Source: Candidatus Woesearchaeota archaeon (GTDB taxonomy: Archaea; Nanobdellota; Nanobdellia; Pacearchaeales; GW2011-AR1). From it: a stretch of 64,000 nt of DNA. This document shows, one piece after another, positions 11,920 through 38,054 of this stretch. Within the stretch, counting starts at the first letter, position 1. Each line of letters opens with the position of its first letter. The notes under the pieces are model-generated. The model did no database searches, was not told the origin of the DNA, and saw nothing but the letters and a program-made list of their open reading frames with translations. The stretch spans positions 26,856 through 90,855 of the forward strand of contig CAYWQI010000001.1 of the NCBI GenBank assembly GCA_964460535.1. The letters run 5' to 3'. Position numbers and translations under genes: made by a program.

Positions 11920-11920
11920 T

Positions 11921-12112
11921 TTATGAAGTTTTAATTGCAAAGTCTCCTTTTTCTTTTATATTTATTTTGTCAGCAATTTCAGATTTTTCTGGATTTGTAA
12001 CTATTATATGTCCTTTAAAACCTTCAGTAAATTCTTTGCTTCCACATTTAGGACATTTATCTTTTCCTTCATAAACAGTCTTACAAATTTTACATGCTTT
12101 TTTCTTTGGCAT
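11921..12112 (-). CDS. spt4: transcription elongation factor Spt4 (RpoE'')
   Basis: MPKKKACKICKTVYEGKDKCPKCGS, a C4 zinc ribbon. About 63 aa. Lies between rpoE' and S24e as in the conserved archaeal cluster. The ORF-track start at 12229 is an upstream extension. Confidence 0.7.
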   Translation of the reverse strand: MPKKKACKICKTVYEGKDKCPKCGSKEFTEGFKGHIIVTNPEKSEIADKINIKEKGDFAIKTS

Positions 12113-12170
12113 CAAAATTTTCCCCTGCAATTTAATTTTGATGAAATAGAAAATTTTATTTTCTTTGGCA

Positions 12171-12785
12171 TTATTTCTTTCCTCCAGATTTCTTTTGTTT
12201 TGAAGCAGCTTTTTCTTGTTCTTTAGCAACTTTCATTGCTTCTTTTTCTTTTTTGATTTTATCTTCTTGTACCCATTCAATTTTTCCAAGCCCAGGTTGT
12301 CTCATTGTCAATCCTACTTTAGGTTGTTCTCCTTTATGACTTATTGCAACAATTCTTGCAATGCATAAGTCACCTTCTTTTAAACTTCTGTTTGAAGATT
12401 TTCCAGCAAGAGTATTTGATTTACTAAAACTTACATAATCATCCATTGTTTGACTAATATGAATCATACCCCTCATAACTCCCATGTCAATAAATGCACC
12501 AAAATTAGTAATTTCTGAAATCATTCCATAAACAATTTCTTGTAATTGAGGTTTCCAAACAAGTAATTTAAATTTTGATTTATAATATGCTGCACCATCA
12601 CCCGGAATTATAACCCCTTCTTCTACTTCAAGAACTTCAATAACTGAAACAACTCTTCCAAATTCTCTGCTATAATATTCAGCATAAGTTTCTAAAAGTT
12701 GTTTTTCTACAGCTTCACTAGTGTCTAAACCAAATAACTTTGGTTCAACTCTTACATGGTCTTCAACTTCTATTAATGAGAACAT
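12171..12785 (-). CDS. rpoE: DNA-directed RNA polymerase subunit E' (Rpo7)
   Basis: An Rpb7-like N-terminus plus an S1 domain (GMISEITNFGAFIDMG). Confidence 0.8.
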   Translation of the reverse strand: MFSLIEVEDHVRVEPKLFGLDTSEAVEKQLLETYAEYYSREFGRVVSVIEVLEVEEGVIIPGDGAAYYKSKFKLLVWKPQLQEIVYGMISEITNFGAFIDMGVMRGMIHISQTMDDYVSFSKSNTLAGKSSNRSLKEGDLCIARIVAISHKGEQPKVGLTMRQPGLGKIEWVQEDKIKKEKEAMKVAKEQEKAASKQKKSGGKK

Positions 12786-12888
12786 TTTACTTGTAAAAAT
12801 TAGCAAATATTGGTTTAAAAAGGTTTTTGTATGGCCTTTTTCAGTTTATTAAAAAGTATTATGAAACATTAGAATGAATTAGGAGAAT

Positions 12889-13272
12889 TTACACAACTTC
12901 TAATCTTTTACCTTTTAGAATAATTGTTTTTCCTTTTAATTTTTTTATTATTTCCTTGTCAAGAGTTCCAATATAAACTTCTTCATCTTCTTTAGCATAA
13001 TTAACCAAACCTGTATCAACTTTTTTAATACCTAAAATAATTTCTTCAAAATCAGAACATTCAATAATTTTCAATGCAGTATCTGCAAGATCTCTAAATT
13101 TCATTCTTTTTTTCTTACCTTGTGCTATTCCTTTTAATTCAATTAAAACTTCCTGTGGAATTAAAATCTTAAATCCAAGATATTCAAGTTCTTTAAAAAA
13201 ATCAATTTTTTTTCCAACTGCAGAAATTATAAAACTTGTATCTAAAACAGCTTTTTTTACCATAAAATACAA
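12889..13272 (-). CDS. PIN-domain protein
   Basis: N-terminal VLDTSFIISA is a PIN signature. About 125 aa. Adjacent to the rpoE cluster. Confidence 0.5.
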   Translation of the reverse strand: MYFMVKKAVLDTSFIISAVGKKIDFFKELEYLGFKILIPQEVLIELKGIAQGKKKRMKFRDLADTALKIIECSDFEEIILGIKKVDTGLVNYAKEDEEVYIGTLDKEIIKKLKGKTIILKGKRLEVV

Positions 13273-13306
13273 GAATAAAAAGACTATAAAAACTTAAGGT
13301 TTCAAT

Positions 13307-13539
13307 GTATCTTGTAACACTTGGAGTTTTACTCAATAATTTCCTGTTTCACAGAAATAATAAATAATAAGAAATTTTAATTAATATCTTCTGAAGTTCT
13401 TTTGGATAATTGTGCCTTTAAATCCCTTATTAGAGGATATTTCTATACCTTGCTATATTTAAGCTCTGAAAGTTTTTATAATTAATTTTTTTCAGAGAAG
13501 ATATTTAGTTTTATTTTTGTAGTTAGTGTTACCAGATAT
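13307..13539 (+). mobile_element. MITE-like dispersed repeat, copy 1 (about 233 bp, 14-bp terminal inverted repeats)
   Basis: Left end gtatcttgtaacac and right end gtgttaccagatat are reverse complements. The interior is shared with four other copies in this window, for example ataattgtgcctttaaatc and tatatttaagctctgaaa. Confidence 0.65.
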
Positions 13540-13709
13540 GTTCCAATCTCTGCTTTTAACTTTATCGAAAATTTCTGTTCAAAACAAATTTGATATAATG
13601 ACAGATATCTATAAATTGATTAATTATAAATTAAAAATTTTCTACTAATATCTCTTTAGTTACTGCATTTCTTCCAAAACTTTATTAACCCCCAACCCTT
13701 TAGATACAT

Positions 13710-14270
13710 ATGCAAGAGGTGGACAATATTCTGAGAATTTTAAAAGAAACAAAATTAGCATTGCAAGAAGAAGATTCACATAAATTAAGAGATTTAAGTA
13801 ATCAAACAAATAATACAGCTTCTAGAACACAAGATCCAGACAATATTGCAATTGCAGTGATTATATATTCTATGAGTAAGATAATAGAAAGAGACCAATA
13901 TAGAAAATTAAAAGGATGGAAAAAATTTTATAAGCAATTCTTAAAAAAATTAGATTTAATTATCCTTGATATTAATAAGAAAAATTCTAGAGAACTTAAA
14001 AAAAATATACAAGAATTAAGAGAGTCAATAGATAATCTTTCTGGAAGATTAAAAGAATTTATTCAAGATGTTTTTAGAAAAGCTTCAATAAACAAAGCAT
14101 CAAAAATTTATGAACATGGTATATCAATGGAAAAAACTTCAAAGCTTCTGGGAATAAGTTTATGGGAACTTGCGAATTATTCAGGAGCAAAAGCAGATAC
14201 ACTTACAGAAGAATTAAAGACAATTAAAACAAAAGACAGAATTAAATTTGCAGAAGGAGTTTTTTCTTAA
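13710..14270 (+). CDS. hypothetical protein
   Basis: ORF only. Its stop overlaps the start of the next gene (TAAATG). Confidence 0.3.
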   Translation: MQEVDNILRILKETKLALQEEDSHKLRDLSNQTNNTASRTQDPDNIAIAVIIYSMSKIIERDQYRKLKGWKKFYKQFLKKLDLIILDINKKNSRELKKNIQELRESIDNLSGRLKEFIQDVFRKASINKASKIYEHGISMEKTSKLLGISLWELANYSGAKADTLTEELKTIKTKDRIKFAEGVFS

Positions 14271-14984
14271 ATGATTTCAAATCCCAAAACAAAAAAAGCA
14301 CTAATCTTTGATGCAAGTTCTTTAATTAGTTTAGCAATGAATGGGCTTTTACCCATACTTGAAAAATTGAAAAAAAATTTTAAGGGTTATTTTTTAATAA
14401 CAAGAGAAGTTCAATATGAGGTAATTGAAAGACCTCTTAAAATAAAAAAATTTAAATTAGAAGCTTTAATGATTCAGAAACTTCTTAAAACAAAAATACT
14501 AGAAACTCCAGAAAAAATTGGATTAGATATCAAAGATAATCAAGTATCAAAAAGAACTAATGAAATCATGGAAGATATTAATGATTTATTTATAACAAAA
14601 GGAAAACCTGTGGAAGTTATAGATTTAGGAGAATCTTCTTGTCTTGCTTTAAGTGAGATGCTTTCTGAAAAAAAGATGCATAGTGTTATTTGTATGGATG
14701 AAAGAACAACAAGGGTTTTAATTGAAAAACCCTCAAATCTTCAGAATTTATTAGAAAAAAGATTACATTCTAGAATAAAATCAAACAAAGAATTTTTAGA
14801 TACTTTAAAAAGAAAACAATATAAAATTATTCGTTCTGCAGAATTAATGTATCTTGCATATAAAAAACAATTATTTGATATATCAGATTCAAAACTTTTA
14901 GATGCTGTATTATATGCTTTAAAATTTAAAGGATGTGCAATTTCTGAACAAGAAATAGAAGAAATAAAAAAATTATCCAAATAA
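14271..14984 (+). CDS. PIN-like domain protein (hypothetical)
   Basis: N-terminal ALIFDASSLISLA resembles a PIN fold. No other motifs. Confidence 0.3.
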   Translation: MISNPKTKKALIFDASSLISLAMNGLLPILEKLKKNFKGYFLITREVQYEVIERPLKIKKFKLEALMIQKLLKTKILETPEKIGLDIKDNQVSKRTNEIMEDINDLFITKGKPVEVIDLGESSCLALSEMLSEKKMHSVICMDERTTRVLIEKPSNLQNLLEKRLHSRIKSNKEFLDTLKRKQYKIIRSAELMYLAYKKQLFDISDSKLLDAVLYALKFKGCAISEQEIEEIKKLSK

Positions 14985-15350
14985 ATTAAAATCTTCTTTA
15001 TCCAAATCACTAATTGAAATTGTCAAGACTCTTTCTTTTGAAGAATATTCAATACTTATGATATATTTCAAATTTTGTTTTGACACTTCAAAACTTTCTT
15101 GAGATTCATCATCTTCTAATTCATTAATCATAAAACCAGATTCAACATAATATCTTTTAATTACTCTTGAAAATTCCCTTATTTCTGAAACTCTTTTTTC
15201 ATCTATTGTTATTTGCAAAACTCCTATTTGAGGTGATTCAGAAATAATGCTCTTAAAATTCTCTTGTTTTGATTTTCCAAATAATTCTGAAATTTTTTTA
15301 CCTATATTTTCAAGATGCGGCAAATTGTCTAAATTATCTTCTTTTTCCAT
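14973..15350 (-). CDS. hypothetical acidic protein
   Basis: ORF only. Confidence 0.3.
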   Translation of the reverse strand: MEKEDNLDNLPHLENIGKKISELFGKSKQENFKSIISESPQIGVLQITIDEKRVSEIREFSRVIKRYYVESGFMINELEDDESQESFEVSKQNLKYIISIEYSSKERVLTISISDLDKEDFNLFG

Positions 15351-15402
15351 AATTATCTATAACAACAGATTTTAAAAATGCTACTATCAACCTATTTTAT
15401 AA

Positions 15403-15473
15403 GGGTGCATCGCTTAATGGTAAAGTATCCGGCTCCAGACCGGAAGCTGAGGGTTCAATTCCCTCTGCGCCCA
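15403..15473 (+). tRNA. tRNA-Trp (anticodon CCA)
   Basis: Acceptor stem GGGTGCA/TGCGCCC. Anticodon stem TCCGG/CCGGA with loop cTCCAga. T-arm GAGGG-TTCAATT-CCCTC. Discriminator A. Confidence 0.75.
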
Positions 15474-15481
15474 TTTTTAGA

Positions 15482-15769
15482 ATGTCAGAACAACAAAAAC
15501 AACCTTTAGAAGAATTAGAAGATTTAAGAAAAGAGATAAATATTTTAGATAATCAAATTTTGAATCTTTTAAAAAATAGACAAGAGATTGTGGAGAAAGT
15601 TAAAGAATTTAAGATAAAAAATAATGTTTCTTTTTATCAGCCAGATAGAGAAAAGATGATTTTAGAAAGAATAAAAAATATAGCTGATGAAAAAGGAATG
15701 AATTCTGAGATAGCAAAAAATATATTTAAAAAAATTATACAAGAATTTAGGAATTCAGAAATAAAATGA
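15482..15769 (+). CDS. chorismate mutase (AroQ type, monofunctional)
   Basis: About 95 aa, helical, with the AroQ pattern LEELEDLRKEINILDNQILNLLKNRQEI...YQPDREKMILER. Confidence 0.65.
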   Translation: MSEQQKQPLEELEDLRKEINILDNQILNLLKNRQEIVEKVKEFKIKNNVSFYQPDREKMILERIKNIADEKGMNSEIAKNIFKKIIQEFRNSEIK

Positions 15770-16608
15770 AAATAGGATTTTTAGGACCTGCAGGAACATT
15801 TACAGAAAAATTAGCTAAAGAGATTTTTCCAGATGAAGTATTAATCCCTTTGCAACCAATTAGAAAAGTTGTATTAGCTGTTGAAACAGGAGAAGTTGAT
15901 TCTGCAGTGGTTCCAATAGAAAACATTTACAATGGTGAAGTTCGACAAACTCTCGATTCTCTAACAGAATGCAATAAAACAAAAATAGTAAGAGAATTTT
16001 CTAAAAAAATTGTTCATTGTATTGGAGCTCCTTTAGACTCTGATTTAAAACAAATTAAAAAAGTCTATTCAAAAGACCAAGCTTTAGAACAATGTAGTAA
16101 ATATTTAATAGATAAACTTCCTAAAGCAGAATTAATTTCTGTAGCAAGTACATCTGAAGCAGCTAGAATAGTTTCTGAACAATCTTCTCCAATTCAAGCT
16201 GTTATAGCTTCTGAAAATGCCTTAAATGAAAGAGGATTAAATATTTTAGATAAAGACTTGTGTCCAAACAATCAAACAAGGTTTATTGCACTTTCCCAAA
16301 AATCAACAGAGTCAACAGGAAATGATAAAACATTTGTAGCACTTCACCCAGAAATAAAAGATAAGCCAGGTATTTTATACAATTCTCTAAAATTTATTTC
16401 AGGACAAAATATTAATTTGGAATATATTCAATCACGTCCAGATGGAGAAAATGGTTATTATTTTTATTTAGAATTAGAAGGCCATGAAAAAGATGAAAAA
16501 ATAAAAAAAACTCTTGAAAAAATAAAGACCTTTCTTGATCCAGAAAACCAGTTTCCAAATACTCTTAAAATTTTAGGAAGTTATTCAAACACTAATTGGA
16601 AACATTAA
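15766..16608 (+). CDS. pheA: prephenate dehydratase
   Basis: MKIGFLGPAGTFTE, the PDT N-terminus, plus a C-terminal ACT-like region. Overlaps chorismate mutase by 4 nt. Confidence 0.75.
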   Translation: MKIGFLGPAGTFTEKLAKEIFPDEVLIPLQPIRKVVLAVETGEVDSAVVPIENIYNGEVRQTLDSLTECNKTKIVREFSKKIVHCIGAPLDSDLKQIKKVYSKDQALEQCSKYLIDKLPKAELISVASTSEAARIVSEQSSPIQAVIASENALNERGLNILDKDLCPNNQTRFIALSQKSTESTGNDKTFVALHPEIKDKPGILYNSLKFISGQNINLEYIQSRPDGENGYYFYLELEGHEKDEKIKKTLEKIKTFLDPENQFPNTLKILGSYSNTNWKH

Positions 16609-16616
16609 TAGATAAA

Positions 16617-17110
16617 ATGAAGATAAATATAATCTGAGGAATAGGATTAATCTGCAAGATCCACAAGGACTTTTTTGAATTTTCAGGATATGAGTTTTTC
16701 TTATTGAAAGAAATTCAAATAAAGATATTGAAAAAGCAACCCAAGATTCAGAAGTGATAATTATTTATGTTCCAATTTCTGTAACTAAAAAAGCAATTGA
16801 GCAAATTGCTCCTATTTGTCAGAACAAGGCTTTGATAGATTTTACAGGAATAAAAAGAAGTTCCTTCAGAAAAACAGGACAAACTTGTTTCAGGAATTTT
16901 TCAAAATTTAAGAACACAAATGTTTCAATCTTATGCAAGCCCTTTAAAAAAAACAATGTTCAGATGAATTTTCAATTAAAGATATTTATGAACTCTCACA
17001 TCCTCAAACAAAAGCTCTTATTGATTTAATTTTAAGACAAATACATAATGGAAATGATAATTTATTTTATGAAATAAGAAAATCTAATATTCATTAGAAT
17101 TGTATTAATC
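16617..17110 (+). pseudogene. decayed prephenate dehydrogenase (tyrA-like) remnant
   Basis: Fragments lie in different frames and are separated by stops: MKINII*, GIGLICKIHKDFFEFSGYEF and DSEVIIIYVPISVTKKAIEQIAPICQNKALIDFTGIKRS. They match the TyrA N-terminal Rossmann region (GLGLIGGS...DLVILAVPI...DVxSVK). Confidence 0.45.
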
Positions 17111-17565
17111 AAGAATTAGAAAAAGTCTAAGAAAGAATGAAAAGGAAAATCAGAGATACTTAATTGAAGAGCTCCTAGCCCATATATTTTTAAAGTTTCT
17201 TTCCTACTAAAGACTCGTAATATTTAATGTTCATTTTCTAGAAGTCATAAATATATATAAAGAATCTATTCTTTATTTAATCATGAAAAAAGAGGACAAA
17301 ATCATGTCTGAAGTTAGTGATGAAGTCTTCTTGCTTATGAAAAAAATCCAGAGAAGATTCAATCTCTCTTGGAGCAAAGCAAGAGAAGGTGTAAGTTCAT
17401 CACTTGTAGCTCTTTATGGGCTTCAACTTTAATTTTTATTTTTTTTATTTAATTCCTATAGAAGTCAATGCGCTTTTTGAATAAATCTTGTGCGAAGGTT
17501 TTTCAATAGAAATCCATTAGAAACCTTTAAAAATCAATTGCAATATATCTTTATAACAGAATTTA

Positions 17566-17637
17566 TGCCTACGTGGTCTAACGGCTATGACACTACCCTG
17601 TCGCGGTGGTAACCCGGGTTCAACTCCCGGCGTGGGC
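17566..17637 (+). tRNA. tRNA-Asp (anticodon GTC)
   Basis: Acceptor stem GCCTACG/CGTGGGC. Anticodon stem CTACC/GGTGG with loop cTGTCgc. T-arm CCGGG-TTCAACT-CCCGG. Discriminator G. Confidence 0.75.
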
Positions 17638-17731
17638 GTTCGGAACTTTTTTACTCACACTCTCATTTTACAGACGACAAAATAAATTAACTCCCAAATT
17701 TCAAAATTGAGAAGAGTGCGGGCATTGAACT

Positions 17732-17752
17732 TTGTAGACATTTTTGTAGAAA
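17732..17752 (+). repeat. direct repeat TTGTAGACATTTTTGTAGA(A/C)A, left copy, flanking the fic gene
   Basis: Identical at 20 of 21 positions to 18720..18740. Extra TGTAGACA octamers at 17763-17770 and 18751-18758. Confidence 0.7.
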
Positions 17753-17783
17753 AGTTTATAAATGTAGACACCATAATATAATT

Positions 17784-18725
17784 ATGTATCTTGAAAAGAA
17801 AAAAGTAAAAGGAAAGATAAAATACTATTTGGCACATTCTTTTAGAGAAGGGGGAAAAGTTCATAAAATTAGAAAAAAATTAGGTACAGATTTATCCAAA
17901 GAAATTTTAGAAGAAAGAATAAAAAAAGCAGAAGAATTGATTTTAGAAGAAATAGAAAAATACAAATTTATTAAGGATCCTCTTGATAAAGATTTATCCA
18001 AAGAAGAAATTGAATTTGTAAAAAGATTACAAAAAGAGAATAAATTTGAGATCTATCATCTATCTGAAAAAGAATGGAAATTATTTTCAAAGATATTCAC
18101 TTACAATACAAATGCAATTGAAGGTAGCAAGTTAACAAAAAAAGAAGTTGAAGAAGTTTTAGAAGAAAACAAATGGCCAGATAAATCAAAAGAAGATATT
18201 GCCGAGACTTATGGAGTCAATGAGGCCATTAAATTTGTAAGAGATACTAAAGAACATTTATCTATTGAATTATTAAAAAGCATACATACAATAGTTTTCA
18301 AAAATTCAAAATCCTTTGCAGGAAAATTTAGAAAAAAAGGAGAAGAAGTTGCAGTTATTAATTCTGATGGTTTTATTGTTCATGAAGGAGCGCCACAAAC
18401 AAGAGTCTTAGGATTATTAGAAAATTTAGTTAAATGGTATAATAAAAACAAGACCAAATATCCTGGATTAATTTTAGCATCAGTAGTCCATAACCAATTT
18501 GAAAACATTCACCCTTTTGCAGACGGAAATGGAAGAGTTGGAAGAATTATTATGAATAATATACTAATGAAAAATAATCTTCCCCCAATAAATATAGACT
18601 TAGATAATCGAAGTGAATATTATTCAATTTTAAAAGAATATGAAAAAAACAAAAATCTAAGGCCCACAATCGAGTTTTTGATAAAAGAATACAAAAAGAC
18701 TAAAAAACAAATAAAGAAGTTGTAG
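17784..18725 (+). CDS. Fic/Doc family protein (putative AMPylase)
   Basis: Canonical Fic motif HPFADGNGRVGR. 313 aa. Confidence 0.8.
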   Translation: MYLEKKKVKGKIKYYLAHSFREGGKVHKIRKKLGTDLSKEILEERIKKAEELILEEIEKYKFIKDPLDKDLSKEEIEFVKRLQKENKFEIYHLSEKEWKLFSKIFTYNTNAIEGSKLTKKEVEEVLEENKWPDKSKEDIAETYGVNEAIKFVRDTKEHLSIELLKSIHTIVFKNSKSFAGKFRKKGEEVAVINSDGFIVHEGAPQTRVLGLLENLVKWYNKNKTKYPGLILASVVHNQFENIHPFADGNGRVGRIIMNNILMKNNLPPINIDLDNRSEYYSILKEYEKNKNLRPTIEFLIKEYKKTKKQIKKL

Positions 18726-18740
18726 ACATTTTTGTAGACA
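18720..18740 (+). repeat. direct repeat TTGTAGACATTTTTGTAGACA, right copy
   Basis: Matches 17732..17752. Overlaps the fic stop codon. Confidence 0.7.
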
Positions 18741-18913
18741 TTTTTTATTTTGTAGACAAGGTTTTCAAAAAGAAAGTTTTAAAAACAAGTCTTTTTGTCT
18801 AAATTCTAGAGAAAAAATAGAAACAAAACAAAATTATCTATTTTTTGAATATTAAAATCAATATTAAAATATTAAGATATTAAGATATATATTGAAGTTA
18901 TATTAAAATTAAA

Positions 18914-20203
18914 ATGAATAAAAATAAATTTAAACAACTTGGCTTAAGTGAGCAACTTTCAAAAAACCTTGAGAAAATTGGAATTACTGAACCTACAGAA
19001 ATTCAGGAAAAAACAATTCCTCTTACTTTAAAAGGAAAAGATGTAATTGGAGGAAGTGCAACAGGTAGTGGAAAAACTCTTGCTTTTTCTGCAAATATAA
19101 TTGAAAATATTCAAGATAAAAAACCTCAAGAAATTCAAGCACTTATCTTAACACCTACAAGAGAACTTGCAGAACAAATTCTAAATTCAATAAAAAGTTT
19201 TTCACAAGGCTTTCCAGTAAAAGTTTCAACAATCTATGGAGGTGTGGATATTGAAAAACAATTTAGAAATATTCCAAAATCAAATATTATTGTTGGAACT
19301 CCAGGAAGAATTTTAGATCATTTAAATAGAAAAACACTTAATCTTTCAAAAATAAAATATCTTGTTTTAGATGAAGTTGATAGAATGTTTGAAATGGGTT
19401 TTCAAGAAGATGTTGAAAAGATACTTTATTGTTGTCCAAAACCAAAAGAAAGACAAAACCTTTTGTTCTCTGCAACAATTTCTTCAGAAGTAGGATATCT
19501 TTCTGAAAAACATTCCAATAATCCAATAGAGATATCTGTTCAATCTCATGTTGATCCAGCAAAATTAAAACAAGTTTATTATGATGTTCCTTCATCAAGA
19601 AAATTTCCTTTATTAGTTCATTTATTAAAAAATGAAAGTGCAGATTTAGTTATGGTTTTCTGCAATACAAGAAGAAATGTAGATTTTGTGACTCAAAATT
19701 TAAAATTAAATAATATAAATGCTACAGCAATTCACGGAGGATTAACTCAAAATAAAAGAAAAAATGTTTTGTCTGATTTTCACAAAGGACAAACCAATGT
19801 TCTTGTTTGTACTGATGTTGCTGCCAGAGGATTAGACATAAAAAATGTAAGCCATGTTTATAATTATGATATGTCTCCAAATAGTAAAGAATACACTCAT
19901 AGAATAGGAAGAACTGCAAGAGCAGGAGAAGAAGGAATAGCAATAAATCTTATTTCTTCAAGAGATTATGAAAATTTTAGAGAAGTAATTGATAATCCAA
20001 AATTAAAAAAAGTAATAAAAAGAAGAGATTGTCCATATATTCCAAGAGCAAAAATGAAGATTCCTTCAAGAAATAATAAAGGAGATAATAGAAACAGAGG
20101 AAGATTTAATAAATCAAATAATAAATTTGGTCAAAGACATAAAAGAAATTTTCAAAAAAAGAATTCTCAAAAGAACTTTAAATCTAAAAAAAGAAATTTT
20201 TAA
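18914..20203 (+). CDS. DEAD-box ATP-dependent RNA helicase
   Basis: Q-motif region. GSATGSGKT (motif I). DEVD. SAT. HRIGRTARAG (motif VI). Basic RNA-binding tail. Confidence 0.85.
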   Translation: MNKNKFKQLGLSEQLSKNLEKIGITEPTEIQEKTIPLTLKGKDVIGGSATGSGKTLAFSANIIENIQDKKPQEIQALILTPTRELAEQILNSIKSFSQGFPVKVSTIYGGVDIEKQFRNIPKSNIIVGTPGRILDHLNRKTLNLSKIKYLVLDEVDRMFEMGFQEDVEKILYCCPKPKERQNLLFSATISSEVGYLSEKHSNNPIEISVQSHVDPAKLKQVYYDVPSSRKFPLLVHLLKNESADLVMVFCNTRRNVDFVTQNLKLNNINATAIHGGLTQNKRKNVLSDFHKGQTNVLVCTDVAARGLDIKNVSHVYNYDMSPNSKEYTHRIGRTARAGEEGIAINLISSRDYENFREVIDNPKLKKVIKRRDCPYIPRAKMKIPSRNNKGDNRNRGRFNKSNNKFGQRHKRNFQKKNSQKNFKSKKRNF

Positions 20204-20206
20204 ATT

Positions 20207-20437
20207 TTATTTCTCATATCTTGCAATTGAAATAGTTTGATTATCTTCTAAAGTAAGAGTGACTCCTCCAGATGAATTAATTGCAGAAACTATTGAGGTT
20301 AATGCATCTTTTCCACCTTCAATATACTTTTTTTCAAGAGCAGTTTGATGATATCCAAAAGCAAGAATTCCTAGTGCAATTAAAATTATAAATAAAAATA
20401 TGAATCCTATTTTCCATTTATTTTTCTTATTTCCCAT
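20207..20437 (-). CDS. small membrane protein
   Basis: One predicted TM helix. ORF only. Confidence 0.3.
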   Translation of the reverse strand: MGNKKNKWKIGFIFLFIILIALGILAFGYHQTALEKKYIEGGKDALTSIVSAINSSGGVTLTLEDNQTISIARYEK

Positions 20438-20943
20438 TATGAACTTCCCTCACAGAAGTCTAATTCATCTTCACATTCTTCATATTTTTCTTTCCATTCT
20501 TCAATTTCTTGTTCAAGAACCTCTTTTTCATCTTCACAAGTATCTTGAATATCTTTTTTTAATTCCCATTTTTCATTATTACATTCAGTTATCATTTTAT
20601 TTTTCAAACTTTGTTCTTCTTCACTTAAATCAATTGAACTTTCTTTAATTGGAATTCCAAAAATCTCTGGATTTGATTTATTTATATCATATGTAAAATA
20701 TCCTGTTAATTCTGAAGAAATTCCTTCAGCAGATATTAAAAAACCACTCATTTGGATGTTTTCATTAAGATAAAGGTAAGTTCCTCCTCCTAAGATAATT
20801 AAAATAAAGAAGGACATTAATCCAATAACTATTTTTCCATAATGAGGATGCTTTTCTACTTTAGAAAGCACTTCTAATATTTCTTGAAATGTAGGAACAT
20901 TTGTTCTTTCATCAACATCAAAATTCACATCTTTTTTTACCAT
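20437..20943 (-). CDS. membrane protein with acidic Cys-containing C-terminus
   Basis: One TM helix. ORF only. Confidence 0.3.
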   Translation of the reverse strand: MVKKDVNFDVDERTNVPTFQEILEVLSKVEKHPHYGKIVIGLMSFFILIILGGGTYLYLNENIQMSGFLISAEGISSELTGYFTYDINKSNPEIFGIPIKESSIDLSEEEQSLKNKMITECNNEKWELKKDIQDTCEDEKEVLEQEIEEWKEKYEECEDELDFCEGSS

Positions 20944-20986
20944 TTGATAAAATTAATTTGGAATCATTTATTTAAAAATATTTCCT

Positions 20987-21352
20987 TTAATGTCCTAAAA
21001 ACTTGTTATAAATCCATGCAAAAATAAATAATCCTGCAAAAACATCAACAAAACCATAAACAGCTCCAATCAAAGAACCAATCCAACTTACACTATAACC
21101 TGCAAAACCATACATTGCCTCTAACCAAGGAATAGCAAGATTTGTATATCCTGAAAAACTTCCTCCTAAAGCTAATAATGTAGTAATTAAAACACAAGCT
21201 CCAGAAAGAATACCTCCTGCTAATCCAAACTTAACTTTATCTAAACCAGGATATTTAGGATGAACAAAAGCTTCGACTTCATTATGAATTTCTCTTTGTC
21301 TTGCTTTATCCTCTTTTAGAATGTTCTTTTTTGTTTTATTGGATTTTGCCAT
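20987..21352 (-). CDS. small integral membrane protein
   Basis: Three predicted TM helices, Gly-rich. Confidence 0.35.
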   Translation of the reverse strand: MAKSNKTKKNILKEDKARQREIHNEVEAFVHPKYPGLDKVKFGLAGGILSGACVLITTLLALGGSFSGYTNLAIPWLEAMYGFAGYSVSWIGSLIGAVYGFVDVFAGLFIFAWIYNKFLGH

Positions 21353-21408
21353 TTTCCTCTTTTATATTAATAAGAGCAACTCTTCCTTTTTAAATTTTTC
21401 TAAGAATG

Positions 21409-21645
21409 GTCTTTGGTAACCAAAGTATGTTCTTCTTAATAATTTCTTATGGCTTTAATTTAAAAAATAATAAGAAATTTTAATTAATATTTTTTGAAGT
21501 TCTTTTGGATAATTGTGCCTTTAAATCAATTATTATTAGAAAATATTTCTATAACTCATATGTTTAAGATTTGAAATTTTTTACTATTAATCTTTTTTTA
21601 GTAAACATATTTGTTTTTATTTTTGTAGTTAGGACTACTATCTTC
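21409..21645 (+). mobile_element. MITE-like dispersed repeat, copy 2 (degenerate ends)
   Basis: Shares the internal blocks aataataagaaattttaattaatat, ttgaagttcttttggataattgtgcctttaaatc and tttatttttgtagtt with the other copies. Confidence 0.55.
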
Positions 21646-21729
21646 TAAGAGTGCAATTATCTGTAAAAACAAGATATCTTAATAATTAAAAATAATTAAA
21701 TTTAAAATATCTCATTTATTTAAGATTAT

Positions 21730-22524
21730 ATGATAAAAAAGAAAAAACTAGCTAAACTTACTTATATTTCACTAGTTTTATTTACAATCTTTATTTTATC
21801 TTCTATAAGTTATTTTTTTCTCAAAATACAGACTTCTGCAAGTTCTATTAAATATCTTTTAAATATTTTAAATGAAAAAAATTTTCAAGAAATATTAAAA
21901 CAAATAAGTTTTGAATTAGATTCTATTTCAGGATTAATAACAATACAAACAATATTTTCTTTAATAATTATTATTTCTCTTATTTCACTTGCGAGTTTTT
22001 TATTTAAAGCTTATTTAGTAAAACATAGAAATTCAATAATAGATCCTTTAACAGGAATTTACAACAGAGGAGCAATTAAATTTGGTCTTCAACAATCTAT
22101 TAAAGAATCAAGAAGATATAAACATCCTTTAAGTCTTGCAATTTTAGATATAGATCATTTCAAAACTTTTAATGATAAAAACGGACATACAAAAGGAGAC
22201 AACGCATTAATCAAATTTTCAAATATATTATCAAATGAAATAAGAGAATCAGATATTCTTGGAAGATACGGAGGAGAAGAATTTATAATAATCTTTCCTG
22301 AAACATCTTTAAAAAATTCTAAAAAAATCTGTGAAAGAATAAAAAACAAGATACAAAAAACATCTTTTGAAGGTGAAGAAAAACTTCCTGAAAAAAAATT
22401 AACAACAAGTATTGGTTTAGCTTCTTTTTCTGATAAAAGAAAAAGCCTCTCTTCATTAATAAATGAAGCAGATAAAAATCTTTATTCTGCAAAAGCTCTT
22501 GGAAGAAACAAAATAATTGGATAA
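21730..22524 (+). CDS. GGDEF-domain diguanylate cyclase with N-terminal transmembrane region
   Basis: Two N-terminal TM helices. A complete GGDEF domain: DPLTGIYNRG, ILDIDHFKTFNDKNGHTKGDNAL, RYGGEEF (intact GGEEF active site) and ADKNLYSAKALGRNK. Confidence 0.8.
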   Translation: MIKKKKLAKLTYISLVLFTIFILSSISYFFLKIQTSASSIKYLLNILNEKNFQEILKQISFELDSISGLITIQTIFSLIIIISLISLASFLFKAYLVKHRNSIIDPLTGIYNRGAIKFGLQQSIKESRRYKHPLSLAILDIDHFKTFNDKNGHTKGDNALIKFSNILSNEIRESDILGRYGGEEFIIIFPETSLKNSKKICERIKNKIQKTSFEGEEKLPEKKLTTSIGLASFSDKRKSLSSLINEADKNLYSAKALGRNKIIG

Positions 22525-22525
22525 T

Positions 22526-23821
22526 TTAATTTAAGTTATCTTTTTTAATAACTTTTTTACCATTCATGTAAGGTTGAAGAACTTTTGGAATTTTTATACT
22601 TCCATCTTTTTGTTGATTATTTTCTATTAAAGCAACAAGAGCTCTTGAAGTTGCAATAGCTGTATTGTTTAGAGTGTGAGGAATAATTCTTTGACCCTTT
22701 ATTCTTGTTGAAATTCCGAGTTTTCTTGCTTGAGCATCTGTCAAGTTTGAACAACTTCCAACTTCAAAATAATCCTTTTTTCTAGGAGAATAACTTTCAA
22801 TATCAACTTGCTCTTTTTTTAAATCTCCTAAATCTCCTGAACATATTTTTAAAACCCTTATTGGAATTTCCATTTTCTTGAATATGTCAATTGTAATTTT
22901 TTTCATTTGTTTATAAAAATTATCAGAATCTTCAGGTTTGCAAATTACAACCATCTCTATTTTATTAAATTGGTGTGTTCTAAATATTCCTTTTTCATCT
23001 ATTCCATGACTACCAATCTCTTTTCTAAAACACATACTATATGAAGTTTGTTTTAGAGGCAACCTTTTTTCATCTATTTCTCTATCAACAAATCTTCCAA
23101 TTAAAGAATGTTCTGAAGTTCCAATCAACGCCATTTTTTGTTCATCTTCAACAAGATAAATCTGCTGTTGTTTATCATTCAAATCAGTAACTCTGTCAAT
23201 AATTTCTTCTTTTAACATATAAGGAGTTTCAACATATCTAAATCCGCTTTTAACCATATAATCTCTTGCAAAATTTAACATTGCCTGGTTTAATAATGCA
23301 ATATCCCCTTCAATATAATAAAAACCATTTCCTGAAACTCTTGCTGAAGAATCAAAATCTCCTAAACCAAGTTCTTCTATTAATTCTCCATGAGATTTTA
23401 TTTCAAAATCTTGTTTTTTTGGTTTACCAATATATTCTTCAGGAACATTCTCCTCATCATCTTTTCCAATAGGAACATTTTCAGAAATAAGATTAGGAAT
23501 TTTAATTAAAATATCTCTAAGTTCTTTTTCTAATTTCTTTTCCTTTTTTTCATTATTTTCAATTTTTTTAGGAATCTCTTTTGCTTTTTTAATAAATTCT
23601 TTTGCTTTTTTTTCATCCTTGTTCTTTTTAGCTTTATTAATTTCTTCAGAAATCTTATTTCTTTCAGACCTCAATTTATCCCCTTTCTGTTTTTGAATTC
23701 TCCATTTTTCATCAATTTCAATTGCCTTATCCACAAGAGGAAGTTTATTTTCTTGAAATTTTTTCTTTATATTCTCTTTATAAATTTCAGGTCTTTCTCT
23801 AAGGTCTTTTATATCTATCAT
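22526..23821 (-). CDS. serS: seryl-tRNA synthetase
   Basis: N-terminal coiled-coil arm and class II motifs (FRKEIGSHG..., GLGDFDSS...). Start taken at MIDIKDL. Confidence 0.8.
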   Translation of the reverse strand: MIDIKDLRERPEIYKENIKKKFQENKLPLVDKAIEIDEKWRIQKQKGDKLRSERNKISEEINKAKKNKDEKKAKEFIKKAKEIPKKIENNEKKEKKLEKELRDILIKIPNLISENVPIGKDDEENVPEEYIGKPKKQDFEIKSHGELIEELGLGDFDSSARVSGNGFYYIEGDIALLNQAMLNFARDYMVKSGFRYVETPYMLKEEIIDRVTDLNDKQQQIYLVEDEQKMALIGTSEHSLIGRFVDREIDEKRLPLKQTSYSMCFRKEIGSHGIDEKGIFRTHQFNKIEMVVICKPEDSDNFYKQMKKITIDIFKKMEIPIRVLKICSGDLGDLKKEQVDIESYSPRKKDYFEVGSCSNLTDAQARKLGISTRIKGQRIIPHTLNNTAIATSRALVALIENNQQKDGSIKIPKVLQPYMNGKKVIKKDNLN

Positions 23822-23860
23822 GTAAATCAAAAAACAAGACATTATTTAAATCTTATTATC

Positions 23861-24098
23861 ATATCTGGTAATCAAGGCATACACTTTTCACTAATTTTTT
23901 GTTTCACAAATTTAATAAGCAATAAGAAATTTTAATTAATATATCTTGAGTTTTTTGAATAATTGTGACTTGATATTTTTTTATTATGAGAGAATATCTC
24001 TACAAATTGTTATGTCCAATCTCTGAAAGTTTTTACAATTAATCTTGCTTTAAGAAATGTATTTGTTTTTATTTTTGTAGTTGAGATTACTAAGAGAT
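23861..24098 (+). mobile_element. MITE-like dispersed repeat, copy 3
   Basis: Left TIR atatctggtaatca, degenerate right end gagattactaagagat. Internal blocks shared with the other copies. Confidence 0.6.
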
Positions 24099-24140
24099 TA
24101 TCATCAACAAGTTTAAAAATCCTATAAACTTGATTAAATC

Positions 24141-24809
24141 ATGACAGAGGTGGTAAATGAAATTGCGAATCAGACTACAGGAATATATCAAGAAATAGCA
24201 AGTGTTCTTCCACATCCTTTTGGAGTCTTGTTACCTGTTTTAGTACTTGTTTTAGGAGTTTTTATATATTCTTTATTTGTCTGGCATTTTTATAGGTTTG
24301 TTGCAAAAAAAGACCTTATTACTCTAAATTTAGGAGATTATGGAAAATCAATTGAAAATAATTTTATGTCAAAGATAGTTTTGGGGTTTATTTATTTTAT
24401 TGAAAACATCCTTTTTTCTCTAGTAATTATATTCATAGGTTATTCAGCATTTACAATTCTATTTATATTTTTAAATGAGTCTTTAACAACTCAAAATGTT
24501 ATCTTAGTTTCTGCAGTTATTGTTTCAGTTATAAGAATGACTGCTTATTATAAAGAAGCATTAGCTAAGGATTTAAGTAAAATGCTTCCTTTTACTTTAC
24601 TTGCTGTTTCACTACTTAATCCTAAATTTTTTGACATGTCAAGAATAGCCTCTTCTTTTTCAGACATATTTAATTTATTTGATATAATTATCTTGTATTT
24701 TTTATTCATTATTGTTCTTGAAGTTGTTTTAAGATTATCTGAATTTGTTTTTTCATTTTTTAGTCTAGAAGAAATTGAACAAAGAGAAGAAGAAGTAAAA
24801 GAAGAGTAA
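24141..24809 (+). CDS. integral membrane protein (hypothetical)
   Basis: Five predicted TM helices and an acidic C-terminus. Confidence 0.35.
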   Translation: MTEVVNEIANQTTGIYQEIASVLPHPFGVLLPVLVLVLGVFIYSLFVWHFYRFVAKKDLITLNLGDYGKSIENNFMSKIVLGFIYFIENILFSLVIIFIGYSAFTILFIFLNESLTTQNVILVSAVIVSVIRMTAYYKEALAKDLSKMLPFTLLAVSLLNPKFFDMSRIASSFSDIFNLFDIIILYFLFIIVLEVVLRLSEFVFSFFSLEEIEQREEEVKEE

Positions 24810-37822: not shown

Positions 37823-38054
37823 TATCTGGCAATATTAAATACAAAAATAAAACTAAATATCTTCCATGAAAAAAATTAATTCTAAAAATTTTCAGAGCTT
37901 AAATATAGCAAGGTATAGAAATATCCTCTAATAAGGGATTTAAAGGCACAATTATACAAAAGAACTTCAGAAGATATTAATTAAAATTTCTTATTATTTA
38001 CTACTTCTGTGAAACAGGAAATTATTGAACAAAACTCCAAGTGTTACCAGATAC
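37823..38054 (-). mobile_element. MITE-like dispersed repeat, copy 4 (inverted orientation)
   Basis: 38041-38054 gtgttaccagatac is the reverse complement of the left TIR. 37823-37836 gtatctggcaatat is the reverse complement of the right TIR. The interior is the reverse complement of copy 1. Confidence 0.65.

What the first reader, a model, noticed from the sequence alone, without database searches (positions are those of the whole stretch)
17566..18760. Fic-domain gene inserted next to tRNA-Asp and bracketed by 20-bp direct repeats
The fic ORF (HPFADGNGRVGR) begins about 150 bp after the 3' end of tRNA-Asp. A 21-mer TTGTAGACATTTTTGTAGA(A/C)A occurs just upstream (17732-17752) and again overlapping its stop codon (18720-18740). 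Extra TGTAGACA octamers lie at 17763 and 18751.

Flanking by tRNA plus direct repeats is the classic footprint of a site-specifically integrated cassette. Alternatively the repeats are operator sites for a regulator of this toxin-like AMPylase.
Basis: seen in the sequence. Interest (0 to 1): 0.55.

Follow-up and report, generated by a model that had tools for sequence, protein, structure and literature searches.

The report
Self-regulating archaeal Fic gene module
A gene for a protein-modifying (AMPylating) Fic enzyme in a tiny DPANN archaeon carries an extra, probably DNA-binding head and has TGTAGACA boxes around its promoter and again at its stop codon; related archaea keep this layout but change the box sequence along with the head, so the boxes are most likely the enzyme's own control sites, not integration scars.

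Summary
tRNA-Asp lies at 17566-17639, a 313-aa Fic ORF at 17784-18725, and five of the window's seven TGTAGACA octamers (0.9 expected) flank that ORF. They form a 39-nt direct repeat, 17732-17770 and 18720-18758.

The repeats are not tRNA-derived att sites. In all 27 orthologous loci (DPANN archaea) boxes sit at fixed promoter positions: about -51, and -21 directly after a TATA box. In 22 of 26 loci they recur at the stop codon, which is often inside a box. Box density is about 150 times that of the flanks.

Distant homologues in other archaeal phyla keep the geometry with different box sequences. The boxes also accompany the protein's unannotated basic N-terminal domain (three strands plus a helix) when that domain is fused to non-Fic enzymes.

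Best reading: a self-contained, autoregulated FICD-like class II Fic gene whose own N-domain binds operators around the TATA box of a probably leaderless transcript. The 3' cluster is probably a second operator or roadblock. All of this is inferred, not shown.

No gene neighbour is conserved. tRNA genes of varied identity are over-represented beside the module, always with the 3' end facing it, so mobility is not excluded. It is a new variant of known kinds.

The parts
17566..17639 (+). tRNA-Asp (GTC). Its 3' end faces the fic module, 92 nt before the first box. It is not part of the conserved module.
   Evidence: ARAGORN; Rfam RF00005, 56 bits. tRNA adjacency is not conserved as a specific site. 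It recurs with other tRNAs in 6 Rfam-confirmed ortholog loci, plus ARAGORN-only or unconventional cases.
17732..17772 (+). 5' operator-promoter cluster. Box TGTAGACA at 17733-17740. Degenerate box TGTAGAAA at 17745-17752, overlapping the BRE position. TATA-like TTTATAAA at 17755-17762. Box TGTAGACA(CC) at 17763-17772.
   Evidence: The positions are conserved in 26 aligned orthologous upstream regions. Box starts lie at -51 (+/-2) and -21 (+/-1) relative to the ATG.
17755..17762 (+). Putative archaeal TATA box. Its centre lies about 26 nt before the ATG, which implies a leaderless or near-leaderless mRNA.
   Evidence: TTTATAAA, TTTAAATA or TTTATATA is conserved at this position in orthologues and in distant homologues. 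The window is archaeal: aIF5B, topA_arch, Rpb7/RpoE', S24e. The start-site position is inferred from established archaeal promoter geometry and has not been measured.
17784..18725 (+). fic ORF, 313 aa: an FICD-like class II Fic (AMPylase/deAMPylase) with an extra N-terminal domain.
   Evidence: Pfam Fic 9.4e-19. PDB profile search: FICD 4.4e-26. Foldseek: FICD 5e-13. AlphaFold model pLDDT 88. More than 3,300 homologues; the listed orthologues are 65-88% identical and 304-344 aa long, mostly 310-316.
17784..17987 (+). N-terminal domain, residues 1-68: three antiparallel strands (2-8, 11-22, 25-35) plus a long helix (39-62). It is very basic. It is the proposed DNA-binding head.
   Evidence: Models (pLDDT 88). 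No Pfam, PHROG or PDB sequence match. The best Foldseek hit is an integrase arm-type DNA-binding domain, 3jtz, but it is not significant (E 0.78). An HMM search finds the domain fused to HAD, PEP-utilizer, HisKA-like and membrane proteins as well.
18108..18125 (+). TNAIEG, residues 109-114: the class II inhibitory-helix motif (S/T)xxxE(G/N).
   Evidence: Invariant in 23 orthologues. Aligned to FICD TVAIEG.
18510..18545 (+). Fic active-site motif HPFADGNGRVGR, residues 243-254.
   Evidence: Read directly. The motif core is invariant.
18720..18758 (+). 3' box cluster. TGTAGACA at 18721-18728 (contains the stop codon TAG, 18723-18725), 18733-18740 and 18751-18758. An AT-rich spacer lies at the TATA-equivalent position.
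   Evidence: Boxes occur at or next to the stop codon in 22 of 26 orthologous loci that have a 3' end. In each lineage the cluster mirrors the order, orientation and spacing of the 5' boxes, for example L090, L001 and L087.

Best explanation
The region is a self-contained, single-gene regulatory module that is widespread in DPANN archaea. It encodes an FICD-like class II Fic enzyme with an intact HPFxDGNGRxxR active site and an intact inhibitory TNAIEG helix. This enzyme is fused to a previously unannotated basic N-terminal domain of three strands plus a helix.

The TGTAGACA boxes (full half-site TGTAG(A/T)CA(CC)) are protein-binding operators, most probably read by the enzyme's own N-domain.

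In the 5' cluster one box sits just upstream of the BRE/TATA region. Another directly abuts the TATA box on its downstream side, at -21 to -12 from an ATG that is probably also the transcription start (leaderless mRNA). Occupancy there would block assembly of the pre-initiation complex and recruitment of RNA polymerase, giving negative autoregulation of a potentially toxic enzyme.

The 3' cluster repeats the same box geometry across the stop codon. It is most likely a second operator for the same protein, acting through cooperative looping to the promoter and/or as a roadblock that insulates the gene from neighbouring transcription.

What is shown: the anatomy, its conservation, the co-variation of boxes and protein, and the enzyme family. 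What is inferred: binding by the N-domain, the direction of regulation, the leaderless start, and the role of the 3' cluster.
For: 1. Local enrichment. Five of seven TGTAGACA copies in 64 kb flank this gene, against 0.9 expected in the whole window. Across 27 non-redundant orthologous loci, box density is:
- 21.9 per kb in -100..-1;
- 14.1 per kb around the stop codon;
- 0.08 per kb inside the CDS;
- 0.12 per kb in 193 kb of flanks.

2. Fixed geometry. Box starts lie at -21 (+/-1) and -51 (+/-2), plus an inverted box at -72 in many lineages. A TATA-like octamer lies directly 5' of the -21 box in 26 aligned promoters.

3. Co-variation. Distant homologues (28-37% identity) that retain the N-domain keep the layout 'box, TATA, box, about 10 nt, ATG', but with other boxes:
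- TGTAGGGGTAA (Methanoperedens and Nitrosotenuis type);
- GTGCCCCCTAA (Micrarchaeota);
- GTGTGCCCATAA (Aenigmatarchaeota);
- TGTGGGTATAAC and GTAGGTATAAC (other lineages).
Two paralogous N-domain Fic genes on one contig (L083) have different boxes, TGTAGACA and TGTAAGGGGTAA.

4. The boxes follow the N-domain, not the Fic domain. N-domain fusions to a HAD hydrolase (L171), a 502-aa membrane protein (L172) and a HisKA-like fragment (L175) carry TGT(A/G)GTCACC boxes at the same promoter positions. A divergent N-domain fused to a PEP-utilizer domain (L169) has its own repeat, TGTACGTCCACA twice, 30 nt apart.

5. No other candidate regulator travels with the gene. No neighbouring gene family is shared by more than 2 of 26 loci. 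No other promoter in the window carries the boxes.

6. The N-domain is confidently modelled (pLDDT 88) as a three-stranded sheet plus helix. It is very basic, 13 K/R in the first 34 residues. Its top structural neighbour is an integrase arm-type DNA-binding domain.

7. In each lineage the 3' cluster uses the same box variants, in the same order and spacing, as the 5' cluster. This is expected if one protein reads both.
Against: - No binding data exist.
- The structural match of the N-domain to a DNA-binding fold is not significant (E 0.78, probability 0.21).
- There is no sequence match to any known DNA-binding family.
- The promoter and the N-terminal coding region are physically adjacent. 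Their joint retention in fusion proteins, and their joint divergence, could partly reflect linkage and shared ancestry and need not reflect recognition.
- The function of the 3' cluster is unexplained by direct evidence, and four orthologues lack it (L004, L006, L010, L095).
- A 3' operator locked onto the stop codon is unusual for a looping site.
- Some findings point towards mobility, which the regulatory model does not explain: the absence of synteny, the tRNA 3'-end association and a circularly permuted contig.
Confidence: 0.6

Rival explanations
1. Mobile cassette. The two box clusters are the ends of a roughly 1-kb mobile fic cassette. They would be binding or recombination sites for a recombinase acting in trans, or for the N-domain protein itself, and the cassette would tend to land next to tRNA 3' ends.
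For: - The closest relatives (88% and 86% aa identity) lie in unrelated gene contexts. Nucleotide similarity to the window begins at the first 5' box and ends at the last 3' box.
- No neighbour is conserved in 26 loci.
- A tRNA lies within 310 nt in 6 Rfam-confirmed ortholog loci (WIN, L010, L089, L091, L094, L096). L003 is ARAGORN-only, L001/L176 carry unconventional tRNA-like genes, and the distant homologue L023 also has one. The tRNA identities differ, and the 3' end always faces fic. The binomial P for 7 of 31 is 0.0007-0.03, depending on the assumed background.
- In L176 a 2.8-kb segment containing fic is bracketed by 92-bp direct repeats inside tRNA-like genes. It also occurs as a circularly permuted contig with a 55-bp terminal overlap (L183).
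- L018 shows an att-like repeat, a tRNA-3'-end-like sequence followed by ATTCTTTTTATTTTA, on both sides of a fic-only module.
- A stop codon embedded in a terminal repeat, and a promoter embedded in the other end, resemble insertion sequences.
Against: - No integrase, transposase or HUH protein lies in the module or within about 6 kb.
- The boxes are unrelated to the tRNA, and the tRNA end has no second copy.
- The distance from tRNA end to nearest box varies from 8 to 237 nt, so there is no precise junction.
- Most loci have no tRNA nearby.
- Only one copy exists in the 64-kb window.
- No orthologue occurs in 2.9 million viral contigs.
- The family is as conserved as aIF5B across the same clade: Fic plateau 66-75%, aIF5B 67-71%. 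This fits vertical inheritance under strong selection.
- Four orthologues have no 3' cluster, and distant homologues mostly have only the promoter boxes.
- The ends are direct repeats in the window's lineage.
- The L183 circle could be an assembly-graph loop caused by the 92-bp repeat.
Confidence: 0.17
2. Unlinked regulator. The boxes are operators for a trans-acting transcription factor encoded elsewhere, with fic as one member of its regulon. The N-domain would then have another role, such as substrate or nucleic-acid binding.
For: The operator-like geometry around the TATA box says nothing by itself about which protein binds. The N-domain has no significant match to a known DNA-binding fold.
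Against: - No other promoter in the 64-kb window, or in 193 kb of flanks of orthologous loci, carries the boxes. Density there, 0.12 per kb, is close to a rough composition-based estimate of about 0.15 per kb (my own calculation, not a tool result).
- Box sequence changes with the lineage of the linked N-domain across archaeal phyla. It differs between two paralogues on one contig.
- The boxes accompany the N-domain in non-Fic fusions.
Confidence: 0.1
3. RNA-level element. The boxes act in the transcript, either as hairpins or protein-binding sites in 5' and 3' untranslated regions for translational autoregulation, or as a terminator or stabiliser.
For: In many lineages the 3' boxes form a perfect inverted repeat, GGTGACTACA-N9-12-TGTAGTCACC, that would fold as a 10-bp hairpin at the mRNA 3' end. 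The N-domain profile's only weak sequence similarities are to basic RNA-binding ribosomal proteins L34 and eS1, E 0.02-1.
Against: - In the window and its near relatives all boxes are direct repeats and cannot form a hairpin.
- A box position can hold either orientation in different lineages, as L098 and L099 show at about -50. Equivalence of the two orientations is a property of double-stranded DNA recognition.
- The 5' boxes flank a conserved TATA element placed about 26 nt before the ATG, so they are probably not transcribed.
Confidence: 0.05
4. Chance. The repeats are low-complexity AT-rich sequence with no function.
For: The genome is about 26% G+C, and many weak AT-rich repeats are reported in the region.
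Against: None of 100 shuffles reached the observed count. Boxes lie at the same positions in 27 of 27 orthologous loci, with about 150-fold enrichment over flanks.
Confidence: 0.01

Closest known systems
FICD/HYPE (metazoan class II Fic AMPylase/deAMPylase of BiP)
   Same: It is the best sequence and structure match for residues about 106-303 (PDB profile 4.4e-26, Foldseek 5e-13). It has the same inhibitory-helix motif (TVAIEG against TNAIEG) and the same active-site motif.
   Different: FICD has a membrane anchor and TPR repeats N-terminal to the Fic core (established knowledge). The archaeal protein has instead a 68-residue basic sheet-plus-helix domain with no TPR. Its target is unknown. 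FICD is not described as flanked by its own binding sites.
Fic enzymes fused to DNA-binding domains: Coxiella CbFic2 and Shewanella SoFic (C-terminal helix-turn-helix)
   Same: Each is a Fic core fused to a DNA-binding module. In CbFic2, DNA binding through the helix-turn-helix regulates the switch between AMPylation and deAMPylation by dimerisation (PMC10628234, abstract). SoFic-type models hit the Fic core (PADLOC SoFic 1.2e-34).
   Different: Here the extra domain is N-terminal and is not a helix-turn-helix. The NCBIfam SoFic equivalog scores 54 bits against a cut-off of 550. No specific, conserved, gene-flanking operator set came up for those enzymes in the two literature searches run here.
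Autoregulated toxin modules (Phd/Doc, FicT/FicA)
   Same: Each is a Fido-fold, potentially toxic enzyme whose expression is held down by repeated operator sites at its own promoter (established knowledge of Phd/Doc autoregulation).
   Different: Those systems use a separate small antitoxin gene as DNA binder and inhibitor. Here there is no conserved partner gene. The inhibitory helix and the putative DNA-binding domain are both in the enzyme's own polypeptide.
Archaeal repressors that bind at or downstream of the TATA box (for example MDR1, LrpA, Phr)
   Same: An operator placed between the TATA box and the start site, or overlapping BRE/TATA, blocks recruitment of RNA polymerase or of TBP/TFB (established knowledge). 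The -21 box abutting the TATA box fits this logic.
   Different: Those are dedicated helix-turn-helix-type regulators. Here the presumed regulator is an enzyme with a new type of DNA-binding head, and a second operator cluster sits on the stop codon.
tRNA-targeting integrative elements and insertion sequences
   Same: The module lies beside a tRNA 3' end and is flanked by direct repeats. Its promoter lies in one end and its stop codon in the other. It has no synteny.
   Different: There is no integrase or transposase. The repeats are not derived from the tRNA. The repeats are conserved at promoter positions in loci without a tRNA, and the junction distances vary.

Membership tests
Fic/Fido superfamily | Active-site motif HxFx(D/E)GNGRxxR within the Fic fold | tested here: met
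   HPFADGNGRVGR at residues 243-254. Pfam PF02661 at 9.4e-19, 68.5 bits against a cut-off of 24. Fic fold in the model, with Foldseek hits to many Fic structures.
Class II Fic proteins (intramolecular N-terminal inhibitory helix) | (S/T)xxxE(G/N) motif on a helix N-terminal to the Fic core, in the same polypeptide | tested here: met
   TNAIEG at residues 109-114 is invariant in 23 orthologues. It aligns to FICD TVAIEG and lies at the end of helix 95-112 in the model.
FICD/HYPE orthologues | N-terminal membrane anchor plus TPR repeats preceding the Fic domain | tested here: not met
   The PDB match covers only residues 106-303. Residues 1-99 have no TPR or other Pfam hit. The model shows a three-stranded sheet plus helix there.
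SoFic-type Fic (NCBIfam NF046030; PADLOC SoFic defence protein) | Full-length equivalog match, including the Fic_N region and the C-terminal winged helix | tested here: not met
   NF046030 scores 54.2 bits against a cut-off of 550 and covers residues 203-308 only. The PADLOC SoFic and PDC-S04 hits (1e-34 to 3e-36) cover only the Fic core region, residues 79-310. An anti-phage role was not tested.
Toxin-antitoxin Fic/Doc modules (FicT/FicA, Phd/Doc) | An adjacent, co-transcribed small antitoxin gene | tested here: not met
   No neighbouring gene family is shared by more than 2 of 26 loci. In the window the nearest upstream feature is a tRNA, and the nearest downstream gene is a DEAD-box helicase 189 nt away.
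Mobile mystery protein B (TIGR02613) | Equivalog-level match, plus a partner 'mobile mystery protein A' | tested here: not met
   43.1 bits against a cut-off of 124.4. There is no conserved partner.
tRNA-integrated genomic island or integrative element | Integrase gene within the element | tested here: not met
   Pfam scans of ORFs from 11464 to 24809 found no integrase, recombinase or transposase.
tRNA-integrated genomic island or integrative element | Direct repeat (att) derived from the tRNA 3' end at the far boundary | tested here: not met
   No second copy of the 15- or 22-nt tRNA-Asp 3' end exists in the window at up to 3 mismatches. The 39-nt repeat has no similarity to the tRNA. A comparable att-like repeat is seen in a distant homologue, L018, but not here.
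IS200/IS605-like elements | Subterminal hairpins at both ends plus an HUH TnpA | tested here: not met
   The window's boxes are all direct and form no hairpin. No HUH protein was found. Some other lineages do have hairpin-capable inverted boxes at both ends.
AP2 / integrase arm-type DNA-binding fold | Three-stranded antiparallel sheet packed against a helix, with a significant structural match | tested here: inconclusive
   The topology fits: strands 2-8, 11-22 and 25-35, then helix 39-63. The top Foldseek PDB hit is the arm-type binding domain of HPI integrase, 3jtz, but with E 0.78, probability 0.21 and TM 0.39.
Autoregulatory operator (cis-linked transcription factor and site pair) | Sites at the regulator's own promoter that co-vary with the regulator across lineages | tested here: met
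   for the Fic genes; for the non-Fic N-domain fusions.
Autoregulatory operator (cis-linked transcription factor and site pair) | Direct physical binding of the protein to the sites | not testable with these tools
   This needs EMSA, footprinting, DAP-seq or protein-DNA structure modelling.

The most novel reading that the evidence does not exclude
The box clusters at both ends of the gene may be more than transcriptional operators. They could be docking sites that hold the Fic enzyme on its own gene and switch its activity, in the way that DNA binding switches Coxiella CbFic2 between AMPylation and deAMPylation.

The DNA locus itself would then act as the enzyme's cis 'antitoxin' or allosteric regulator. 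The one-gene module would be context-independent and self-insulating, and it could move between genomic sites, preferentially to tRNA 3' flanks. This would be a new kind of single-gene selfish or defence element in archaea.
Probability: 0.08. Interest if true: 0.85.

Novelty: new variant of a known kind. Interest (0 to 1): 0.58.

Why it matters
Fic enzymes are studied mainly in bacteria and animals, and no study of Fic genes in DPANN archaea turned up in the two literature searches.

This gene is present in thousands of DPANN sequences. It is as conserved as translation factor aIF5B, so it is probably important to these reduced-genome organisms.

The analysis gives it three things:
- a defined promoter and operator architecture;
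- a candidate new DNA-binding domain family, also fused to other enzymes, which suggests a class of enzyme-regulators in archaea;
- a natural set of orthogonal domain and box pairs (TGTAGACA, TGTAGTCACC, TGTAGGGGTAA, GTGCCCCCTAA and others) that makes recognition directly testable.

A repeated operator cluster locked onto the stop codon is unusual for an archaeal gene, and so is the recurrent placement next to tRNA 3' ends. Both bear on how potentially toxic genes are insulated or moved in compact genomes.

Tried and rejected
1. att-site test. I searched the window for a second copy of the tRNA-Asp 3' end (22-mer and 15-mer, up to 3 mismatches). There was none.

2. Empty-site comparison through the downstream DEAD-box helicase.
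- Its nearest non-self homologues are only 67% identical.
- They lie in bacterial-looking contigs with sigma-70.
- No closely related genome was available, so no presence/absence test could be made.

3. The 3' cluster as promoter of the downstream gene: rejected. Downstream genes are co-oriented in 10 loci and convergent in 10, and none is conserved.

4. Virus-borne gene. No N-domain Fic orthologue occurs in IMG/VR. The best hits are 28-34% identical over the Fic core only.

5. Horizontal transfer inferred from conservation.
- Fic has near relatives at 88% and 86%, against 75% for aIF5B and 67% for the helicase.
- Its broad plateau (66-75%) equals that of aIF5B (67-71%).
- Conservation alone therefore does not demand transfer.

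6. Identifying the N-domain. Pfam, PHROGs, a PDB sequence profile and Foldseek gave nothing significant.

7. The 165-aa and 186-aa proteins that share the 2.8-kb circularly permuted segment with fic have no Pfam or PHROG match.

8. Residue-to-base correlation. An aromatic at position 32 goes with TGTAGTCACC, and L/K/R at position 32 goes with TGTAGACA. The pattern holds in almost all orthologues (exception L098), but it follows phylogeny, so I did not count it as independent evidence.
Full report
**What is in the window**

ARAGORN and Rfam place tRNA-Asp(GTC) at 17566-17639 on the + strand. A 313-aa ORF at 17784-18725 has a Pfam Fic domain (9.4e-19) and the motif HPFADGNGRVGR.

TGTAGACA occurs seven times in 64 kb against 0.9 expected, and no shuffle reached seven. 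Five copies flank the ORF, at 17733, 17763, 18721, 18733 and 18751. The other two are single copies inside long ORFs.

The two clusters share more than the 21-mer. Box starts are spaced 0, +12 and +30 in both, which gives a 39-nt direct repeat, 17732-17770 and 18720-18758, 79% identical. The stop codon TAG lies inside the first 3' box. In the 5' copy, TTTATAAA (17755-17762) directly abuts the third box.

**The organism and the protein**

The window is archaeal:
- aIF5B equivalog, 638 bits;
- archaeal topoisomerase I, 637 bits;
- Rpb7/RpoE';
- ribosomal protein S24e.

An identical Fic protein is annotated from a Nanoarchaeota MAG.

The Fic core is closest to FICD/HYPE (PDB profile 4.4e-26, Foldseek 5e-13). 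It carries the class II inhibitory motif TNAIEG at residues 109-114, which is invariant in 23 orthologues.

Residues 1-68 match no Pfam, PHROG or PDB sequence family. They are confidently modelled (pLDDT 88) as three antiparallel strands plus a long helix and are very basic. The best structural neighbour is the arm-type DNA-binding domain of an integrase (3jtz), but the match is not significant (E 0.78). The fold assignment is therefore only suggestive.

**Comparative anatomy of orthologues**

I used one scan each of genome and metagenome contigs, plus look-ups of exact proteins. This gave 27 non-redundant orthologous loci (44-88% aa identity) from MAGs labelled Nanoarchaeota, Pacearchaeota, Woesearchaeota and Aenigmatarchaeota, a few labelled Methanosarcinales, and unlabelled metagenome contigs.

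Every locus has the same upstream layout:
- a box at -51 (+/-2);
- a TATA-like octamer (TTTAAATA, TTTATAAA or TTTATATA);
- a box starting at -21 (+/-1), directly after the TATA element;
- about 12 nt with no Shine-Dalgarno sequence;
- then the ATG.

Many lineages add an inverted box at -72, which gives the palindrome GGTGACTACA-N12-TGTAGTCACC. The full half-site is TGTAG(A/T)CA(CC).

In 22 of 26 loci with a complete 3' end, boxes recur at the stop codon. The stop codon is often part of a box (ttgTAGaca, ggTGActaca, aagTAGtcacc). In each lineage the 3' cluster mirrors the variants, orientation and spacing of the 5' cluster.

Box density is as follows:

| Region | Boxes per kb |
|---|---|
| -100..-1 | 21.9 |
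| around the stop codon | 14.1 |
| inside the CDS | 0.08 |
| 193 kb of flanks | 0.12 |

The flank value is close to a rough composition-based estimate (my own, not a tool result).

**Co-variation**

Distant homologues (28-37% identity) that keep the N-domain, from MAGs labelled as other archaeal phyla, keep the same layout: box, TATA, box, about 10 nt, ATG. Their box sequences differ:
- TGTAGGGGTAA with an inverted partner TTACCCCTACA (Methanoperedens and Nitrosotenuis type);
- GTGCCCCCTAA (Micrarchaeota; in L013 it also abuts the stop codon);
- GTGTGCCCATAA (Aenigmatarchaeota);
- TGTGGGTATAAC and GTAGGTATAAC (other lineages).

On contig L083, two paralogous N-domain Fic genes 800 nt apart have different boxes, TGTAGACA and TGTAAGGGGTAA.

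An HMM of the N-domain searched against 1.84 billion representative proteins found only 110 hits. They include fusions to a HAD hydrolase, a PEP-utilizer domain, a HisKA-like segment and a 502-aa membrane protein. Three of these genes carry TGT(A/G)GTCACC boxes at the same promoter positions. The most divergent has its own repeat, TGTACGTCCACA twice, 30 nt apart.

The boxes therefore travel and change with the N-domain, not with the Fic core. No other gene travels with them: no neighbour family is shared by more than two of 26 loci.

**Mechanism proposed**

The simplest reading is cis autoregulation. The N-domain of the Fic protein binds the boxes.

One site lies upstream of BRE/TATA. Another lies between the TATA box and the start site, and the TATA centre sits about 26 nt before the ATG, so the mRNA is probably leaderless. 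This is the classic position from which archaeal repressors block pre-initiation complex assembly or polymerase recruitment (established knowledge). Autorepression fits an enzyme that is potentially toxic and already self-inhibited by its glutamate helix.

The 3' cluster is not a promoter for a downstream gene. Downstream genes are unrelated and are co-oriented or convergent in equal numbers. I infer that it is a second operator for the same protein. It would act by looping to the promoter or as a roadblock that ends or insulates transcription at the stop codon.

Binding, the sign of regulation, the start site and the role of the 3' cluster are all inferences.

**The cassette question**

- no integrase lies within about 6 kb;
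- no repeat is derived from the tRNA;
- the repeats are promoter-anchored elements present in loci without tRNAs.

Several observations nevertheless keep mobility open.
- The 88% and 86% relatives are in unrelated contexts, and similarity starts and stops at the box clusters.
- tRNA genes lie within 310 nt of fic in six Rfam-confirmed ortholog loci: Asp, Tyr, Thr and Ala upstream; Arg and Ser downstream. There are further ARAGORN-only or unconventional cases in L003 and L001/L176, and one distant homologue, L023.
- In every one of these cases the tRNA 3' end faces fic. Only three tRNAs (L005, L088, L009) lie more than 310 nt from fic in the fetched ortholog flanks, and three more lie in the 64-kb window itself.
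- The binomial P for 7 of 31 is 0.0007-0.03, depending on the assumed background.
- In the P0083 lineage a 2.8-kb segment (two unknown genes plus fic) is bracketed by 92-bp repeats inside tRNA-like genes. It also appears as a circularly permuted 2843-bp contig with a 55-bp terminal overlap. This may be a circle, a tandem copy or an assembly loop.
- L018 shows an att-like repeat on both sides of a fic-only module.

Against frequent transfer:
- the family's identity plateau (66-75%) matches that of aIF5B (67-71%) over the same breadth;
- no orthologue is found in viral contigs.

I give the mobile-cassette reading about 0.17.

**Comparison with known systems**

The enzyme is a member of the Fic superfamily and of class II (tested, met). 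It is not an FICD orthologue, because it has no TPR repeats. It is not a SoFic equivalog (54 bits against 550). It is not a toxin-antitoxin pair, because it has no partner gene.

Fic enzymes with DNA-binding domains are known. [quoted passage not shown] Autoregulated Fido toxins are also known (Phd/Doc; established knowledge).

Three things differ here: the N-terminal domain type, the archaeal TATA-embedded operator, and the duplicate operator cluster on the stop codon. Two literature searches found nothing on Fic genes in these archaea.

I rate this a new variant of a known kind, with moderate-to-good interest (0.58).

Noticed in passing
L176:2252-5131 and L183 (whole contig): In the P0083 lineage (70% identical Fic), 92-bp direct repeats with one mismatch lie inside two tRNA-like genes on the minus strand, as a T-loop insert. 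They bracket a 2.8-kb segment carrying a 165-aa gene, a 186-aa gene and fic. Contig L183 (2843 bp, seen in 2 samples) is that segment circularly permuted, with a 55-bp terminal overlap and one repeat copy. It may be a circle, a tandem copy or an assembly-graph loop.
   Followed up: partly
L018:3900-4990: In an Aenigmatarchaeota homologue, a tRNA-3'-half-like sequence followed by ATTCTTTTTATTTTA lies just upstream of the promoter boxes. A similar tRNA-end-like sequence followed by the identical 15-mer lies just after the stop codon. This is an att-like direct repeat around a fic-only module.
   Followed up: no
L184, L187, L190, L191: The identical Fic protein P0046 occurs with two different upstream contexts and the same downstream context. 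Identity between the two begins 116 nt before the ATG. In MAG GCA_002687975.1, two contigs both end 78 nt after the fic stop codon, which suggests an assembly break at a repeated or variable fic locus.
   Followed up: partly
L171, L172, L175, L169 (proteins P0321, P0326, P0289, P0333): The N-terminal domain also heads non-Fic proteins: a HAD hydrolase, a 502-aa membrane protein, a HisKA-like fragment and a PEP-utilizer-domain protein. Each has box repeats at its promoter. This suggests a wider family of enzyme-regulators in archaea.
   Followed up: partly
L083:2259-3266: A second, paralogous N-domain Fic gene lies 800 nt downstream of the orthologue, with a Maf gene between them. It has its own box type, CTCTACA / TGTAAGGGGTAA.
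   Followed up: partly
L013:4856-4900 and L019:4874-4960: Downstream of Micrarchaeota fic genes, whose own box is GTGCCCCCTAA, there are also Pacearchaeota-type boxes: TGTAGTCACCC in L013 and GGTGGCTACAAAA..TGTAGCC in L019. This hints at a second N-domain protein acting there, or at cross-talk.
   Followed up: no
window:16610-17098: Between the prephenate dehydratase gene and the tRNA there is no long ORF. Fragments in three frames (MKINII.GIGLI..., VIIIYVPISVTKKAIEQIAP..., HPQTKALIDLILRQ...) look like a frameshifted prephenate-dehydrogenase-like pseudogene, or sequencing errors.
   Followed up: partly
window:21730-22524, 18914-20203, 38041-39621: The archaeal window carries bacterial-type genes. 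There is a GGDEF diguanylate cyclase (TIGR00254, 168 bits). There is a DEAD-box helicase whose nearest homologues lie in contigs with sigma-70. There is also a class II, bacterial-type LysRS (lysS_bact, 523 bits).
   Followed up: no
proteins P0279, P0289, P0245 and similar: Gene callers often extend N-domain ORFs upstream into the TATA box and the -21 box. The result is spurious N-termini such as MFKNVVTYIIY- or AIFKYVVTFISY-, which are translations of TTTAAAxxTGTGGTCACC.
   Followed up: partly
L081:1-4801: The 88%-identical orthologue sits directly after a defence-island-like run: MT-A70 and N6/N4 methyltransferases, then a GmrSD type IV restriction enzyme.
   Followed up: no
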